Shown here in pieces: positions 9,001-15,000 of a stretch of DNA of 64,000 nt. This stretch comes from Trypanosoma brucei (lineage: Eukaryota). The stretch lies in assembly GCA_000002445.1 (NCBI GenBank), contig CP000070.1:1-64000 (forward strand), read 5' to 3'. The position numbers are program-made. Numbering within the stretch: the first letter of the stretch is position 1; every line of letters begins with the position of its first letter.

Positions 9001-12000
9001 GAAGCCCAAACAAGAGCAAGAACAGCAGCACCAGAAACTGGATGTGCTAAACATGTAGATAATAAAACTACATACGATACTGAAAAAAGGTGTAAATGGG
9101 AAAAAGAAATTTGCAAGTATACCAGTTTTCTTGTAAAAATAAAATTGCTTTGACTGCAGATGCTATTATGAGTTTGGAATTATTTTAAGTATTTTAAGAT
9201 TTTTTTACTTAAATTTATAATATTTAAGTAAAATTTAAAATAATTTGTTAAATGTGATATATATTAACACTTTTGAAGAAATGTGAAAATCAATGAAATT
9301 TCTAAAATATGAAATTATGAAATTGCGGTATAAAAGTGGCATATGGGTGTAAAGCATTGAGGTAAAAGGATATGAAAAATGACTGCTATGCCTAAATTTT
9401 TGCTGTTATAAAAAAAGTTATATAGTAATAATGATAATAATAGGAGAGTGTTTAGAGTGTGTATATACGAATATTGTAATACGAGGAGTGGTAAAGTCTA
9501 AATGCACGGTCAAAATAGAAATACACAAAAAATAACAGTGGTGCAATGGCATTAAGTGAGTGACTGAGAAAGTGAGATGAAAATCGAATATTCTCATCAG
9601 CAAGCACAAATATAACTAGAGTTATCGTCATACGCAAGAAGATGGGAGGACAATGGAGTAGAGACGCAGCCCAGTGTACCTGCTAGATTGAGGTTCTACG
9701 GTATTCTCAGTGATAGAGGTAGTAGCAAAAGAAGAAAAAGAAGGGAATAAAGTACAAGATGTAATAACGGAGTTCATAACGGAACGTCACAGAAGAAATT
9801 GACGGAACAGGAACGCCCAACGAAAAAGCGGTGTATTATACTGAAAAAATGAATAGATACTACTGCATAGATGATAATATAGACCGTACTTTTAAATCTG
9901 ATGTCAGAGCCTAATGTCATTCTCTAAGAGACCGTAAAACGGTACATAGCAGCTTTGTATTTTTCTCCGTCTCAATTCAAAACCAAAGCCTGTTGTTGCG
10001 CTGGACCGTTTACGGAATATCTGAGCCGACGAACCAAAGCCTGCTCACCACTATACGACCAGCAGACCTAACTGAGAAATCCAAACTTTCCGACGTCACA
10101 GCAACCAACACTCCTTGAACTTAGACAGCAGGTAATGAATATATTTCCGCTTTGGCTGGCTGTAACAACGACGGCGCTGGTCTCTACTTTTTTCGCTGCG
10201 GCCGACGACACCAAGGGTGACAACAGTGGAGCATTTGCTATCCTTTGCGAATTTATAAACATGGCAAAAAATCCACCCCCCAGCGCTACTCAAGCTGAAA
10301 ACATCGACGACCTTGCCGCGGCCATCGGCGCACTAAATATGTCAGCAGCAAACCCTCCCTTCGATCAGTTAATCGACCATAAGCATGACCTGGAAAATCA
10401 TAAAGAAAAATCAGTGAAACCAACAACTGGCGAAGAAGCTGAGAAATGGACCGCAAAATACGCCTTCTGGTAGAAAGCAAGGGAATTTCTCGAAGGATCA
10501 AACAAAAAAGCAATATATGCAAGCTACAGGAAACTGAAACTTAACACGCTGGCACAAAAACAAATACAAACAGCGGCAGAAATTGCGGCGGCAAGTTTCA
10601 GAAAAGCAGCGCAGCTGCGCGCAAAGCTCACGAACTCCGCAGCAAAAGCAAGCGCCAGCAAAGCACTGTTCGGACTCACCGGGGCGCAGCCAGCAGACCC
10701 TTATTATGGAAGCAACGGCCGCGGCGAAGTTTGCGGCAAGCCAGCAAGCAACACCAACACACAAGCGGGCAACGCGCTCCAACTGGATGCCCTGTGTTTG
10801 TGCGGATTCTTCAGCGCCGCAGGCGACGAAGGCGCTAGCTGCGGAGGCAAAATAGGCTCGGAGCCGAACAACCTCGCCGCATCAGCCTGGACACCAAGCA
10901 CAGATCCAACAAAATGGTGGGAAAATATTGAAACCGGCTGCGCCAAGCTAAACAGCGGGCTGCAATTAAAAACAACAAATGTACTATTTGCAACAGCAAA
11001 GATGCAAACATTCATGGCAAGCGACCCAAAGGGTACAAATAAGGAATACCAACATGTCCTTGGCAACATGCTGGGAACCGGCTCCGAAGGTTGCAAAGGC
11101 AAGAAAGACAACAACGGCGGTAAATGCGTTGCGTACAAGAACAGCTACTTTACCACAGGCCAACCAACCCTACCTTGGCTAGTAAATCTATAAGCAGCCG
11201 CGACCGCAGCAGCCCAAATGGCAACAGCCGCAAAAGACCTGGAACAGCTTGAATCAAAACTGAAAGACCTCAACACGTCTGCCCACCAGCTGATCTACAG
11301 CGAGACCGCAGCATCTCACAGCCAACCTCCAACAACCGAAGGCAAAGAAAGCGGAACAGGCGAGAAACAGAAACAAAAGGATCAATGCGAAACAATAAAG
11401 AAAGCAGCGCAATGCAGGGAAAAAAAACCGGCATGCGAATGGAAAGGCCCAAATGACGACGATGAAGAACACTGCAAATTGCATGCGACAGCAATAGCAC
11501 AACAAGCAACCCAAGCAGGAACAGCTGGAGGAAATGGAGAGACAAAAACAACAGATAAGTGTGGTGCGGCTAAAACTCCTGAGGAATGTGCTGCAGTAAA
11601 GGGTGAAATTCCGAAAGATAAAAAAGCTGTTTGTGGTTGGATTGAAGGCAAATGTCAGGATTCCTCTATTCTAGTAACCAAGAAATTAGCCTTCAGCGTG
11701 GTTTCTGCTGCATTTGTGGCGTTGCTTAACTAAAATCCCTCCTCAATTTTTCTCCTTTAAAAAATTCTTGCTAAAATTTTTGCTATTTGATATATTTTAA
11801 CACGTAAGTTATGTCGAGTTTTTTTGTTGACTGTAAAAATCTGATTCTGTAAAAAAATTTCTGTTTTCTGACAGCTAAAAATTTTTTCCTTTTTTCTTTT
11901 GAATTTTTTTGAATATTTAGGGTTAGGTTCAATTTTTTCAATTCATTTTGTTTTTTGGTATTTTTGATTTTTTGATTTTTTTATTTGATCTCCGACTGCG

Positions 12001-15000
12001 TCCTTTTTTTTGTCTTCGTGAGTTTTTCCTTTTTTTTTTTACACCGTCGTTTTTTTTCAAGGTTTTTAAATTTTTAGATTTTTTTTGAGATTTTTTCAAA
12101 TCTTTTTTTTATTAGTTTTCGGCCTTCCTCGGTTTTCTGTCATTTTTTTAATTTTCTTAATTTTTTGGTTTCACATTCAATTTAAAATTTTTTTAATTGA
12201 ATTTTTAATTTCTTTTTTATGCTTTAATTTTATTTTGAAATCCAGTCTATATATTTTTCCCTCCGTGTTTCGGCTTAGGGTGTTTCGGGTTAGGGTTAGG
12301 GTTGGGGTTATAAGTTCTATCTTTTTTGGTTTTTTTTACTATAACTGAAGCGTCGTTACTTTAGTTTGTTCTTCTCTTTGAACCAGCAGTTATTTCACTA
12401 TACGGACCATAACTATTATAAGCAAAGTAGCTGTTTCAGTGTTTTTTTATAATTTGCTATTTTCTTAATTTTTAGTGATGCGGCGGCTATATTTTGATTC
12501 AACCATAACCCTTATTTGCGCCCTACACATAGGCGTTTTTTTTTTACTCCTGTGGCTTTTGTGAATTTCGGCTCTGAATTTTGCGCTACGCGGCTTCAAA
12601 TTTTTTCTTTTACTTTTTTTGACGCTTTTACGTGGTAGTTTCGCTGCGCAAAACAATTTTCTTTTAAAGAACAAATGATTAAAAATGGAGTTATTCGGAA
12701 GTAGGAGATTATCACATTTGGCAATAAAGGGGTAACTGCGCAATCTGCTACTGGAAACGGACGACTCAAGCCGCTCACCTTCCAGGGGTGCGCTTTTAAC
12801 CCCAAAGACGCCAAGGGAGTAAGGTGCATATTGATTGAGAAAGACAAACAAGCAGTAGCAAAAGAAGAAGCAACAAAAGAAGGGAAAGATTGAAAAACAC
12901 CTTCAGATAGGTACACAAAACACGGCAACAATAGAGAGGCTTGTGAAAAAGAGAGAACACCAGGGAAACCCGCTCTTTGTGGCTGATTAGCGAGGAAGTG
13001 AGGGGATATGATAAAGACTTTAAATGCCGTGATTCCAGTTTTATACTAAATAAAAAATTTTCTCTGATGGCTGCTGCGTTTGTAGCTTTGCTGTTTTTAA
13101 TTTTTCAAAAATTAAAAAAATTGCTGTTTTAAGATACGTTGATATATTTTAATATTTTTGAACGAAAATTATAAATTTTTTGGGATAAGTAAAAAAATTG
13201 TAAAATATGCATGATAGTTGTATATGGGTGAAAGGTAGTAAAGTGGAAGAGTATGTAAAACGAGTTGTACTTCGGTTTGTTTTGTTTAGTTTATTATACA
13301 GGTTTTAGGGCAATGTGGGTTTTTAATAGTGATAATAGGAAAAGTAATGCAGTAACGTTAACAGTAATTATTGGTGGTGTGTGCTATCAGTGTGCATACA
13401 CCTACATTGTTATGCAAATGGCGGTTAACCCCTACTGGAAACTAAAAGTAATAGAAAGGGTGCAATGGGAGGAAGTGAGTAAATGAAAAAGAAATGGCAA
13501 AGCATGAGGAATATTATTAATGGAAACGCAGAAAAGCAGACAGAATGAGAGGGAGGGGCGTGTAATATGTGCACTTTCAAACAAAAATATGATGTTAGGC
13601 ATAAACGTAAACAAAGAGATGGTTAATGGGACGCATAGGGAGCTACAGTCCAGTATGAAAGGCAAATGGAGTCGCTACATCGTCTGCATAAGTAATGGTA
13701 AACGAAAAATAAGGAAAATACAGAATGAAACGACAGAAGATGCGACACTACAGATCATGAGAAAGTGATGTGGGAGGACATCCCGTTCCATTTTTTTAAA
13801 TAAAATTGATAGATGCGACTTAAGAAATGATTTTGGCGGCTTTAGTTTTTAATTTAGTGGTGAATCCTAATATCCATCTGTGATTAAGGAGGAAAACTGA
13901 GAAGTTAGGTAAGTGTAAGGTAATGTCAAAGAGTTCATTATTTCAGACAAAATAATAATTGCAAACGTTTGTGAAAACAATATAATTTTATAAGGAGGAA
14001 ACAGTTTAAAACAAGGACTACCAGTGAATTACAGTGGAAAGAAGACTAAGGACAATAACGCGGAAACTGCTTGAAATAGCGCATATGTGAGCCGTTAGAG
14101 GAACTTTATATGAGATGGAAAACGCTTGTAATGATACGTTAACAATTCCATATTGGTACACAGATAAGTCGACGTGATTCGAAGATAGGCTAATTCACAA
14201 AAGGATGATAGAAGATAAAGCTTGACTGGGGCACATAAAGCATGCACAAAAAAAATTCAGCATGCAGCTCAAAAAAAATCACCAAGCCTTGAGCGCAAGG
14301 AGAGCACCCACGCACAGGATTTGAAACAAAAACGAAGGGCGAACAGCGACGATGGAAAGAAGCGCCGTTACTTTGCTATTTCAACGACGGGTACTATAAA
14401 TGAAACCGTGAAAAATAAAACAGATTTAAAACCAGAAATATTAAGTGTTATAGTTATATAGAGAAAGGTTTTCAATATATCTTAGCAATGAGGGAATGGA
14501 AATATAGATATATATATATATAAGATTTCATAAATGATCGACCGGATCCGTCAGGATGTTGGAGACGGATATAACCTACAGAGTAGAAGCGGGAGCAAGA
14601 ACACAGCGACGCCAGTTACAGCCTGATCTCAGCAATCTAATACGCTGGACAGTGGAAGCCTATCTCAAGAAAAAGTGGCCGAGAACTCCTAAATTCCGGT
14701 AGAAAGTCGCAACAGAAGCGGCTCCAGTCTTTATGTGAGGCTATAACTGAACCCCTGACACGACCCATGCAAAACCCTCTTTTAAAGAACCGGTCTTACT
14801 GAGAGTAAGAAAGTAGGAAGTACCACACCTCAGTACAGAAAAACTAACGTCAATATTTCACAGCCGTATTCAGAGTAATAAATGCAATAATAGGGAACTC
14901 GCTGCAATTTGTGGCAGTGACGATAATTGTACATTAACTGTCAAGCGAAATGCGGTGACAGCGGAGAGCTTCGAAGACGCGTGCGGTCTATCCATCACCC

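What the first reader, a model, noticed from the sequence alone, without database searches (positions are those of the whole stretch)
11734..12312. A fossil telomere inside the array: a VSG 3'UTR, a T-rich tract and TTAGGG repeats, then more subtelomere.
The near-intact VSG at 10135-11733 is followed in order by an exact 16-mer, about 450 nt of T-rich low-complexity sequence, a TTAGGGTTAGG motif at 11917, and a G-strand-oriented (TTAGGG)n-like block at 12275-12312. That is the arrangement found at a real VSG-bearing telomere, except that the repeat tract is only about 40 nt long and is followed by more VSG-array sequence. This is the signature of a telomeric VSG, from an expression site or a minichromosome, that was internalised by end-to-internal recombination or by telomere healing. 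It marks a past chromosome-end rearrangement.
Basis: seen in the sequence. Interest (0 to 1): 0.7.

Follow-up and report, generated by a model that had tools for sequence, protein, structure and literature searches.

The report
Internal telomere-type VSG tail, recurrent
A surface-antigen (VSG) pseudogene inside a Trypanosoma brucei gene array carries the downstream tail normally seen next to a chromosome end, including a few telomere repeats, but the same package recurs inside arrays of related trypanosomes, so it is a repeated kind of array cassette and not a one-off scar of this chromosome.

Summary
The window is the left end of T. brucei TREU927 chromosome 7. The VSG pseudogene at 10135-11733 is followed by an exact 16-mer, a T-rich tract, TTAGGGTTAGGT at 11917 and a variant-plus-hexamer block at 12265-12312. 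Chance does not explain this: 4 telomere-dimer hits against 0.18 expected, all of them here.

The first 115 nt after the 16-mer are homologous to the flank of a T. equiperdum VSG whose contig runs out in canonical TTAGGG repeats. They are unrelated to the flanks of the other array VSGs sampled.

The same composite occurs at two other internal sites, one in a T. b. equiperdum PacBio array contig and one in a T. equiperdum contig. In order it contains:
- a full VSG;
- a telomere-type flank;
- a short G-strand block;
- a T-rich tract carrying a conserved unit with a C-strand CCCTAACCCT-like core;
- a VSG fragment holding only the C-terminal domain (CTD);
- an ordinary array flank (not visible in the T. 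equiperdum contig, which ends just after the fragment).

The block also points towards the chromosome core, so it is not a relic of chromosome 7's own end.

The most likely reading is a telomeric VSG 3' module moved into arrays by break repair, or propagated there by duplication. Interest is moderate.

The parts
10135..11733 (+). Full-length B-type VSG pseudogene with two in-frame stops (TAG at 10471-10473, TAA at 11191-11193). It is the last full-length VSG before the core side of the array.
   Evidence: Translation. Pfam VSG_B and Trypan_glycop_C. Closest protein is EATRO1125 VSG 1125.1081 at 86% identity over the full length.
11734..11803 (+). VSG 3'UTR ending in the exact 16-mer TGATATATTTTAACAC (11788-11803).
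   Evidence: The exact 16-mer is present in all 5 telomere-type flanks sampled and in 0 of 8 array-type flanks.
11804..11916 (+). Conserved telomere-type flank after the 16-mer.
   Evidence: It aligns to L003, L007:671 and L008:11634 with z = 8.4-11.1 (3.4 to the short L002 flank) and to array-type flanks with z of 0.8 or less.
11917..11928 (+). First telomere-like seed, TTAGGGTTAGGT. It is positionally homologous to the start of the repeat tract in L003 and of the blocks in L007 and L008.
   Evidence: The distance from the start of the 16-mer is 129 nt here, against 134-166 nt to the first telomere-like dimer in L008 and L007. In L003 degenerate repeats start at about 150 nt and canonical ones at about 215 nt.
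11929..12264 (+). T-rich tract I: 60% T, 30 T-runs of at least 4 nt in 11880-12265, degenerate 8-21 nt repeats.
   Evidence: There is no 6-nt periodicity, and weak spectral power at 9-11 nt.
12265..12312 (+). Second G-strand block: two 15-nt variant units (GTGTTTCGGSTTAGG) followed by GTTAGGGTTGGGGTTA.
   Evidence: The GTGTTTCGG units also flank the block in L008.
12313..12690 (+). T-rich tract II. It holds one copy of a conserved unit (about 12440-12620): TAGTGATGCGGCGGCT, then AACCATAACCCT (a C-strand telomere-like core at 12501-12512), then TTTTGTGAATTTCGGCTCTGAATTTTGCGCTACGCGGC.
   Evidence: Local homology to L008 and L007. Six copies of the unit align across three loci, with consensus core AACCCTAACCCT. 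Minus-strand telomere-dimer hit at 12501.
12700..13100 (+). Frameshifted VSG fragment holding only the C-terminal domain, ending ...CRDSSFILNKKFSLMAAAFVALLFL. The left edge is uncertain.
   Evidence: tblastn supports 12789-13123, and no N-terminal-domain homology lies upstream of it.
13101..13400 (+). Ordinary array-type 3' flank of the fragment: variant 16-mer TGATATATTTTAATAT (13140-13155), then a degenerate 70-bp-repeat-like remnant (about 13330-13400).
   Evidence: This flank clusters with the array-type flanks (z = 5.5-7.5).

Best explanation
The region 11734-13100 is an internal copy of the conserved 3' module of a telomere-proximal VSG. The module runs in this order:
- a canonical 3'UTR with the exact 16-mer;
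- a conserved flank of about 115 nt;
- a TTAGGG-like seed;
- T-rich telomere-associated sequence with a second short G-strand block;
- a conserved unit;
- an abrupt end at a CTD-only VSG fragment that keeps an ordinary array flank.

It is one member of a recurrent class of composite cassette in Trypanozoon VSG arrays.

Most likely origin (inferred, not shown). An array VSG broke near the boundary between its N- and C-terminal domains. The break was repaired by copying from a telomeric VSG donor, through the donor's C-terminal domain and 3'UTR and on into its telomere-adjacent tract. The new strand was then joined, without long homology, to the retained C-terminal side of the break. Alternatively such a composite arose once and spread by segmental duplication and gene conversion, with the upstream VSG exchanged.

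Either way the few telomere repeats are passive cargo. They no longer act as a chromosome end.
For: Shown:
- Identity of the window: it is TREU927 chromosome 7, left end.
- The telomere-like motifs are non-random and confined to this spot.
- Thirteen flanks taken after the 16-mer fall into two classes. The window flank groups with L003, L002, L007:671 and L008:11634 (within-class z = 3.4-22.5, cross-class z = -1.5 to 1.5).
- L003 runs into at least 13 canonical TTAGGG repeats at its contig end.
- All 5 flanks of this class have the exact 16-mer, against 0 of 8 array-type flanks. By simple arithmetic that split has probability 1/1287.
- L007 lies on a 126-kb PacBio-based contig, with further + strand VSGs downstream. 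L007 and L008 repeat the order VSG, flank, short G-strand block, T-rich tract with the same conserved unit, CTD-only fragment. In L007 the ordinary array flank and a 70-bp repeat follow the fragment.
- The only CTD-only fragments in all the DNA sampled are the three that close these composites.

Literature:
- TTAGGG-like repeats lie 3' of telomere-proximal VSGs (PMC3708902, citing Aline and Stuart 1989).
- The VSG-to-telomere spacer is 200-1590 nt in 17 expression-site clones (PMC2567434).
- GGGTTA-like islands occur inside that spacer (PMC11229358).
- Homology and microhomology dominate break repair in T. brucei (title and abstract of PMC2377438).
Against: - Only one reference flank (L003) ends in a long repeat tract. 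A contig end in repeats is not proof of a chromosome end.
- No expression-site or minichromosome spacer could be fetched. It is therefore untested whether T-rich tract II and its unit belong to real VSG-to-telomere spacers.
- Four primers from the Lister 427 BES1 and BES7 ends do not match any sequence here.
- The sample is small (about 14 internal VSG 3' ends), and L008 was chosen for C-terminal similarity to the window VSG.
- L008 has a 15-N scaffold gap inside its T-rich tract.
- The break-repair mechanism is inferred from anatomy alone.
- The orthologous site could not be compared. Synteny with T. b. equiperdum and T. equiperdum stops at about 24,977.
Confidence: 0.6

Rival explanations
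1. This is a unique fossil telomere at this locus. A VSG-bearing chromosome end lost most of its repeat tract and was joined to internal DNA by end-to-internal recombination, or the end was healed and then extended. On this reading the block marks one past rearrangement of the chromosome 7 end.
For: The flank is telomere-type and the repeat tract is truncated. The site is near the edge of the array, next to the core side. The subtelomere beyond about 25 kb is not shared with T. b. equiperdum or T. equiperdum, so this end has been rearranged.
Against: The same composite, including homologous sequence after the block and a CTD-only fragment, is found at two other internal loci in other genomes. 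The G strand points into the chromosome, so healing of chromosome 7's own end in place is excluded. The first seed at 11917, not the block at 12275-12312, is the positional homologue of the telomere start.
Confidence: 0.15
2. This is a head-to-head telomere-telomere fusion. A VSG-bearing end, with the G strand reading rightwards, fused to a former left-hand chromosome end. That end's telomere-associated repeats carry C-strand cores, and its first gene was a truncated VSG pointing away from the telomere. Most of both repeat tracts were then lost.
For: In both the window and L007 the G-strand block is followed, 150-550 nt later, by units whose core reads as C-strand telomere sequence. The six-copy consensus of that core is AACCCTAACCCT. 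Minus-strand dimer hits lie at window 12501 and at L007 1009, 1205 and 1417. The L008 copies carry more diverged cores. The downstream CTD fragment and the array point away from the presumed lost telomere.
Against: No C-strand repeats abut the G-strand block in any of the three loci. The tract after the block is T-rich on the same strand as the tract before it, which is not what an inverted VSG-type spacer would give. In L007 the composite sits inside a long, uniformly oriented array. Three such fusions with homologous sequence would need either common descent or a very specific end type.
Confidence: 0.1
3. The short interstitial telomere block and its flank are kept because they do something. 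They might provide downstream homology with expression-site telomere spacers, so that the whole VSG plus a working 3'UTR can be copied into an expression site. Or they might be a binding site for TRF/RAP1, or a site for base J, that marks a chromatin or termination boundary. This reading does not exclude the best explanation.
For: The module is recognisable across T. b. brucei, T. b. equiperdum and T. equiperdum, and the exact 16-mer is retained in all copies. The exact 16-mer is what expressed VSG mRNAs need (established knowledge, not tested here).
Against: The window VSG is a pseudogene with two stops. The blocks differ in length and sequence between loci, and the T-rich parts are only about 72-80% alike in the segments that align. 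That looks like neutral decay. No binding, modification or recombination data were available.
Confidence: 0.1
4. The feature is an assembly chimera or a chance match in low-complexity sequence.
For: The block lies in T-rich, repetitive, subtelomeric sequence, where mis-joins are common. No reads were available.
Against: Four dimer hits against 0.18 expected, with none elsewhere in the 64 kb. The flank is homologous to independent sequences. Two other assemblies made with other technologies, one of them PacBio, have the same internal order. A telomeric read joined by mistake would be expected to bring a longer perfect tract.
Confidence: 0.04

Closest known systems
3' organisation of telomere-proximal VSG genes, at bloodstream expression sites and minichromosomes (Aline and Stuart 1989 as cited in PMC3708902; PMC2567434; PMC11229358)
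   Same: A VSG with a canonical 3'UTR and the exact 16-mer. G-strand TTAGGG-like repeats begin 184 nt after the stop codon and recur at about 540 nt, within the published 200-1590 nt range. GGGTTA-like islands lie in a spacer. The flank is homologous to that of a VSG whose contig ends in TTAGGG repeats (L003).
   Different: There is no terminal tract. At most about 4 hexamers are followed by about 50 kb of chromosome. The block points towards the core. A CTD-only VSG fragment and an array-type flank follow. Only a single degenerate 70-bp repeat lies upstream.
Interstitial telomeric sequences of other eukaryotes: short blocks inserted at break repair, and fusion-type head-to-head tracts such as human 2q13 (general knowledge; PMC7215372 for the repair type)
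   Same: A short telomere-repeat block at a non-terminal site, in a region shaped by break repair.
   Different: Here the block travels with several hundred bases of conserved subtelomeric flank and a gene. So it was copied or moved as part of a chromosome-end module, not synthesised by telomerase at a break. It is not a head-to-head (TTAGGG)n(CCCTAA)n junction.
Standard silent array VSG cassette: 70-bp repeat, VSG, 3'UTR, then the next 70-bp repeat
   Same: One 70-bp repeat copy lies upstream at about 9430-9475. The orientation matches the neighbouring VSGs, and the gene is a pseudogene like most array members.
   Different: Ordinary cassettes in this window and in L001, L007 and L008 have a variant 16-mer. 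In those where the repeat is seen, it lies about 185-230 nt after the 16-mer. This cassette has the exact 16-mer and about 1.3 kb of telomere-type sequence plus a CTD fragment before the next repeat.
Minichromosome subtelomeric repeats: telomere-derived 29-bp repeats, and G+C-rich repeats separated by A+T-rich bent DNA (Weiden et al. 1991, recalled from memory, not checked)
   Same: T-rich tracts show T-runs spaced near the helical repeat. In L007 a unit of about 410 nt combines a GC-rich piece with AT-rich DNA and a telomere-derived core.
   Different: No sequence from that paper was available, so the resemblance is a lead only.

Membership tests
Telomere-proximal VSG 3' end | VSG with a canonical 3'UTR containing the exact 16-mer TGATATATTTTAACAC | tested here: met
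   Exact at 11788-11803, the only exact copy in the window.
Telomere-proximal VSG 3' end | G-strand TTAGGG-like repeats 200-1590 nt downstream of the VSG | tested here: met
   TTAGGGTTAGGT lies 184 nt after the stop codon, and the block at 12265-12312 about 530-580 nt after it. The range comes from PMC2567434.
Telomere-proximal VSG 3' end | Flank homologous to that of VSGs that abut a terminal repeat tract | tested here: met
   z = 6.3-8.4 against L003, whose contig ends in at least 13 canonical repeats. Only one such reference was available.
Telomere-proximal VSG 3' end | A long continuous (TTAGGG)n tract running to the chromosome end | tested here: not met
   Only two perfect hexamers in a row, and 51.7 kb of chromosome follows, including core genes.
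Interstitial telomeric sequence, repair-insertion type | A telomere repeat block inserted at a break, with the flanks otherwise continuous (an empty site in relatives) | not testable with these tools
   The orthologous site could not be reached. Synteny with L005 and L006 ends at about 24,977. The block is accompanied by a conserved flank, which argues against simple telomerase insertion.
Interstitial telomeric sequence, fusion type | Head-to-head (TTAGGG)n directly abutting (CCCTAA)n | tested here: not met
   No C-strand repeats lie next to the block. A C-strand-like 12-mer core lies 190 nt downstream, inside a conserved unit.
Standard array VSG cassette | 3'UTR followed within about 200 nt by the 70-bp repeat of the next cassette | tested here: not met
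   The first 70-bp-like remnant after the 16-mer is about 1.5 kb away (about 13330). Where a 70-bp repeat is seen after an array-type flank, it lies about 185-230 nt from the 16-mer.
Recurrent composite cassette (defined in this study) | The order VSG, telomere-type flank, short G-strand block, T-rich tract with the TGATGCRRCGGC...AACCCTAACCCT unit, CTD-only fragment; an array-type flank follows wherever the sequence continues | tested here: met
   The window, L007 and L008 share this order through the CTD-only fragment. The array-type flank after the fragment is seen in the window and L007. The L008 contig ends about 50 nt after its fragment.

The most novel reading that the evidence does not exclude
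Trypanozoon VSG arrays contain a common, so far uncatalogued class of cassette, about 1 in 5 of the internal VSG 3' ends sampled here. In these cassettes a telomeric VSG end, with its working 3'UTR, telomere-associated tract and a few repeats, has been pasted in front of the retained C-terminal domain of a broken array VSG. If that is general, it documents a route from telomere back into the silent archive. It could account for many of the C-terminal-only VSG fragments in the arrays. It would also mean that TTAGGG-like repeats 3' of a VSG are not a safe marker of telomeric location. The internal blocks could further serve as homology sites for eroded telomeres, or as downstream conversion end-points.
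Probability: 0.3. Interest if true: 0.65.

Novelty: new member of a known kind. Interest (0 to 1): 0.4.

Why it matters
How the silent VSG archive is built and renewed is a central question for antigenic variation. A recognisable telomere-type 3' module inside arrays is direct sequence evidence that material moves from chromosome ends into the archive, not only the other way.

If the link with C-terminal-only fragments holds genome-wide, it gives a simple, testable footprint of that route.

It also has a practical consequence. TTAGGG-like repeats downstream of a VSG have been used to call a VSG telomere-proximal (PMC3708902). The loci here show that such repeats also occur at internal sites.

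Tried and rejected
- **Exact-protein look-ups.** Look-ups of the window's 171-aa C-terminal ORF, a core ORF, and two TREU927 VSGs (P0009, P0040) found nothing on record.
- **Homology searches.** The second and third searches were poor. The profile search returned 16 VSGs, almost all already found. The C-terminal-only query found no candidates at all. As a result no expression-site or minichromosome VSG flank could be fetched.
- **Cross-strain comparison of the exact locus.** This failed. 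T. b. equiperdum IVM-t1 and T. equiperdum OVI are collinear with the window only from the core down to about 24,977.
- **Primers from the Lister 427 BES1 and BES7 ends (PMC11229358 supplement).** They match nothing in the window or the loci.
- **Literature.** Cross 2014, Marcello and Barry 2007, and the chromosome I and II papers are not held. No paper on interstitial telomere repeats in T. brucei arrays turned up.
- **Metagenome scan.** A scan for the telomere-type 23-mer found nothing.
- **Rfam.** Nothing above threshold.
- **Rejected: the T-rich tract as a decayed hexamer array.** There is no 6-nt periodicity.
- **Rejected: the tract after the block as a second copy of the post-16-mer flank.** Only a TAAGTT microhomology is shared.
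- **Rejected: the L007 C-terminal hit at 14228-14626 as a lone fragment.** It belongs to a full A-type VSG.
- **Rejected: the telomere-like dimer at L006 6691 as meaningful.** The homologous window sequence lacks it.

Full report
**Where the window comes from.** Six ORF products of the window are exact matches to annotated proteins of Trypanosoma brucei brucei TREU927 on a 2,205,233-bp contig. They include Tb927.7.180 (27072-28385, minus strand) and the proline dehydrogenase (39714-41384). By the Tb927.7 gene numbering, the window is the left end of chromosome 7. Bases 1 to about 13,100 hold five VSG genes or pseudogenes and one fragment, all on the + strand and so pointing towards the core. 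A weak VSG-like remnant starts near 14,950. Weak minus-strand VSG-like hits follow at about 18.4-19.3 kb, amid sequence I did not characterise. The VSG-related gene Tb927.7.180 lies at 27.1-28.4 kb, and clear housekeeping genes start at about 34 kb.

**The observation.**
- The stretch 10135-11733 translates as a complete B-type VSG with two in-frame stops.
- The exact 16-mer TGATATATTTTAACAC is at 11788-11803, the only exact copy in the window.
- The stretch 11804-12271 is 50-60% T.
- TTAGGGTTAGG is exact at 11917.
- The stretch 12265-12312 reads GTGTTTCGGCTTAGG GTGTTTCGGGTTAGG GTTAGGGTTGGGGTTA.
- A telomere dimer with at most one mismatch occurs four times in the 64 kb, all here and all on the + strand. 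The expectation is 0.18, and none of 100 shuffles reached four.

**What kind of flank this is.** I compared the 115-130 nt after the 16-mer with every other VSG 3' end I could obtain. That gave three more from the window and nine from contigs of T. equiperdum OVI and T. b. equiperdum IVM-t1, fetched through VSG proteins. The thirteen flanks fall into two clean classes.
- *Array-type flanks:* window 496, 9255 and 13140; L007 8809 and 11700; L008 2005 and 8840; L001. They resemble each other (z mostly 2-12) and carry a 16-mer with 1-3 mismatches. In six of the eight a recognisable 70-bp repeat follows about 185-230 nt later.
- *Telomere-type flanks:* window 11788, L007 671, L008 11634, L003 2410 and L002 3207. 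They resemble each other (z = 3.4-22.5) and not the array type (z = -1.5 to 1.5). All have the exact 16-mer.
- That 5-of-5 against 0-of-8 split has a probability of 1/1287 by simple counting.
- In L003 the flank leads, about 150 nt after the 16-mer, into degenerate GTTAGTTAGGGG units. At least 13 canonical TTAGGG repeats then run off the end of the contig. This is the arrangement expected at a real VSG telomere.
- It agrees with the literature. TTAGGG-like repeats lie 3' of telomere-proximal VSGs (PMC3708902, citing Aline and Stuart 1989). The VSG-to-telomere distance is 200-1590 nt in 17 expression-site clones (PMC2567434). GGGTTA-like islands occur within that spacer (PMC11229358).

**Why it is not a one-off scar.** Two of the other telomere-type flanks are internal.
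- *L007.* This is a 126-kb contig of the PacBio-based IVM-t1 assembly. A VSG ending at 624 is followed by the exact 16-mer (671), the same flank, and a block GGGGGTTAGTTAGGTTAGGGTTAGGGTTA (823-855). About 1 kb of T-rich sequence follows, then a CTD-only VSG fragment (about 1870-2225), an array-type flank and a perfect 70-bp repeat core (2561). Three called VSG genes and a fourth, uncalled full-length A-type VSG, all on the + strand, lie further on.
- *L008.* The VSG at 10001-11608 is followed by the 16-mer (11634), the flank, and GGGGTTAGGGTTAGGGTTAGGGTTAG plus GTGTTTCGG-type variants (11769-11845). About 550 nt of T-rich sequence follows, with one 15-N gap, and then a CTD-only fragment (about 12380-12742).
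- *Alignment of the three loci.* They align well from the 3'UTR through the first telomere-like block. The window's motif at 11917, not the block at 12275-12312, is the positional homologue of the blocks in L007 and L008. It also lies about where the repeats begin in L003.
- *The sequence after the block is shared too.* Window 12557-12605 matches L008 12194-12247 (80%, E = 1e-7). Window 12454-12512 matches L007 963-1020.
- *A conserved unit.* One unit occurs six times across the three loci, with consensus ...TTTTAGTGATGCAGCGGCT...AACCCTAACCCT.... Its core is a C-strand telomere 12-mer. The window copy reads AACCATAACCCT at 12501-12512.
- *CTD-only fragments.* The only ones in all the DNA sampled are the three that close these composites. 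Each starts near the hinge between the two VSG domains.

About 3 of about 14 internal VSG 3' ends sampled have the composite. One of the three (L007) was an unselected neighbour of the VSG I had asked for.

**Polarity.** The G-strand repeats run 5' to 3' towards the core of chromosome 7. The chromosome's own left telomere would read CCCTAA on the + strand. The block therefore cannot be a remnant of that telomere left behind by healing and outward growth. It arrived as part of a copied or inverted chromosome-end module.

**Most likely mechanism (inferred).**
- An array VSG suffered a break near its domain boundary.
- The upstream end invaded a telomeric VSG and copied through its C-terminal domain, 3'UTR and telomere-adjacent tract.
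- Near the end of the donor, the new strand was joined to the other side of the break, which still carried the resident C-terminal domain and its array flank.

This accounts for five features: the complete upstream VSG with a working-type 3'UTR, the telomere-type tract, the very short repeat block, the co-oriented CTD-only fragment, and the return to ordinary array sequence. T. brucei is reported to repair breaks mainly by homology and microhomology (PMC2377438). Alternatively one such composite arose long ago and spread by duplication, with exchange of the upstream VSG. The similarity of about 72-80% in the aligned segments of the T-rich parts, and the two different C-terminal types among the three fragments, leave both options open.

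I put 0.6 on the general statement: an internal copy of a telomeric VSG 3' module that is a member of a recurrent class. I put less on any one mechanism.

**Rival explanations.**
- *A unique end-to-internal event at this locus (0.15).* It fits the position near the array's edge and the strain-specific subtelomere. The recurrence elsewhere weakens it.
- *A head-to-head telomere fusion (0.1).* The C-strand cores downstream of the G-strand block suggest it. But no C-strand repeats abut the block, and both T-rich tracts are T-rich on the same strand.
- *A maintained function, as downstream homology or as a protein or base-J site (0.1; it does not exclude the best explanation).* This cannot be judged without binding or switching data. 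The variable blocks and the pseudogene status look more like decay.
- *Assembly error or chance (0.04).* This is unlikely given the statistics, the homologous flank and the same internal order in two independent assemblies. Only reads would settle it.

**Limits.**
- Only one reference flank ends in a long repeat tract.
- No expression-site or minichromosome spacer could be retrieved, because the protein-search route to T. brucei DNA was exhausted.
- It is therefore untested whether T-rich tract II belongs to real VSG-to-telomere spacers.
- The orthologous site in other strains was out of reach.
- The key older papers on VSG flanks were not held. I therefore cannot exclude that such composites have been described before.

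**Verdict.** This is a telomere-type VSG tail with a short interstitial telomere block. It is a new example of a known kind of feature, with a recurrent architecture that deserves a genome-wide count. Interest is 0.4.

Noticed in passing
L007:625-2600 and L008:11609-12792: Two further internal composites occur in T. b. equiperdum IVM-t1 and T. equiperdum OVI. Each has a VSG, the exact 16-mer, a telomere-type flank, a short TTAGGG block, a T-rich tract and a CTD-only VSG fragment. In L007 an array-type flank and a 70-bp repeat follow.
   Followed up: yes
window 12440-12620; L007 860-930, 940-1060, 1350-1470; L008 11900-12000, 12040-12270: A conserved unit lies in the T-rich tract, with consensus TTTTAGTGATGCAGCGGCT...AACCCTAACCCT. 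Its core is a C-strand telomere 12-mer, in inverted polarity to the G-strand block upstream. In L007 it is part of a repeat of about 410 nt that also has a very GC-rich piece.
   Followed up: partly
window 496, 9255, 11788, 13140 and the loci: The exact VSG 16-mer occurs only in telomere-type flanks (5 of 5). All 8 array-type flanks carry 1-3 mismatches.
   Followed up: partly
window about 24,977: Synteny with T. b. equiperdum IVM-t1 (L005) and T. equiperdum OVI (L006) runs from the core down to about 24,977-25,500 and then stops. Beyond it only a repeated element (window 18,249-20,751) is about 73-75% similar. The TREU927 left subtelomere of chromosome 7 is strain-specific from there outwards.
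   Followed up: partly
window 27072-28385 (-): Tb927.7.180 is a VSG_B-domain protein with an acidic, His/Lys/Glu-rich repeat insert. Close (at least 90% identical) 437-aa relatives exist in T. b. gambiense, T. equiperdum and T. b. equiperdum. One is listed as a VSG (1125.4880) in EATRO1125. It sits between the array and the core, on the opposite strand to the array VSGs.
   Followed up: no
window 50782-51284: A 213-bp tandem repeat (about 2 copies, 80-86% identity) lies inside the leucine-rich repeat protein gene at 50638-52251. It corresponds to repeated LRR modules and looks ordinary.
   Followed up: no
window 39609-39661, 31054-31087, 38945-38971: Perfect microsatellites: (TTA)17.7 just upstream of the proline dehydrogenase start, (CA)17, and (TG)13.5.
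   Followed up: no
window 11880-12265: T-runs in T-rich tract I show weak spectral power at 8.8-11 nt and none at 6 nt. This is compatible with phased A/T tracts (curved DNA) and not with a decayed hexamer array.
   Followed up: partly
L006:6691: TGGGTTAGGGTT lies about 260 nt before the synteny break in T. equiperdum OVI. The homologous window sequence (about 25,770) reads TTAGGGAGGGAG, so this is probably chance.
   Followed up: yes
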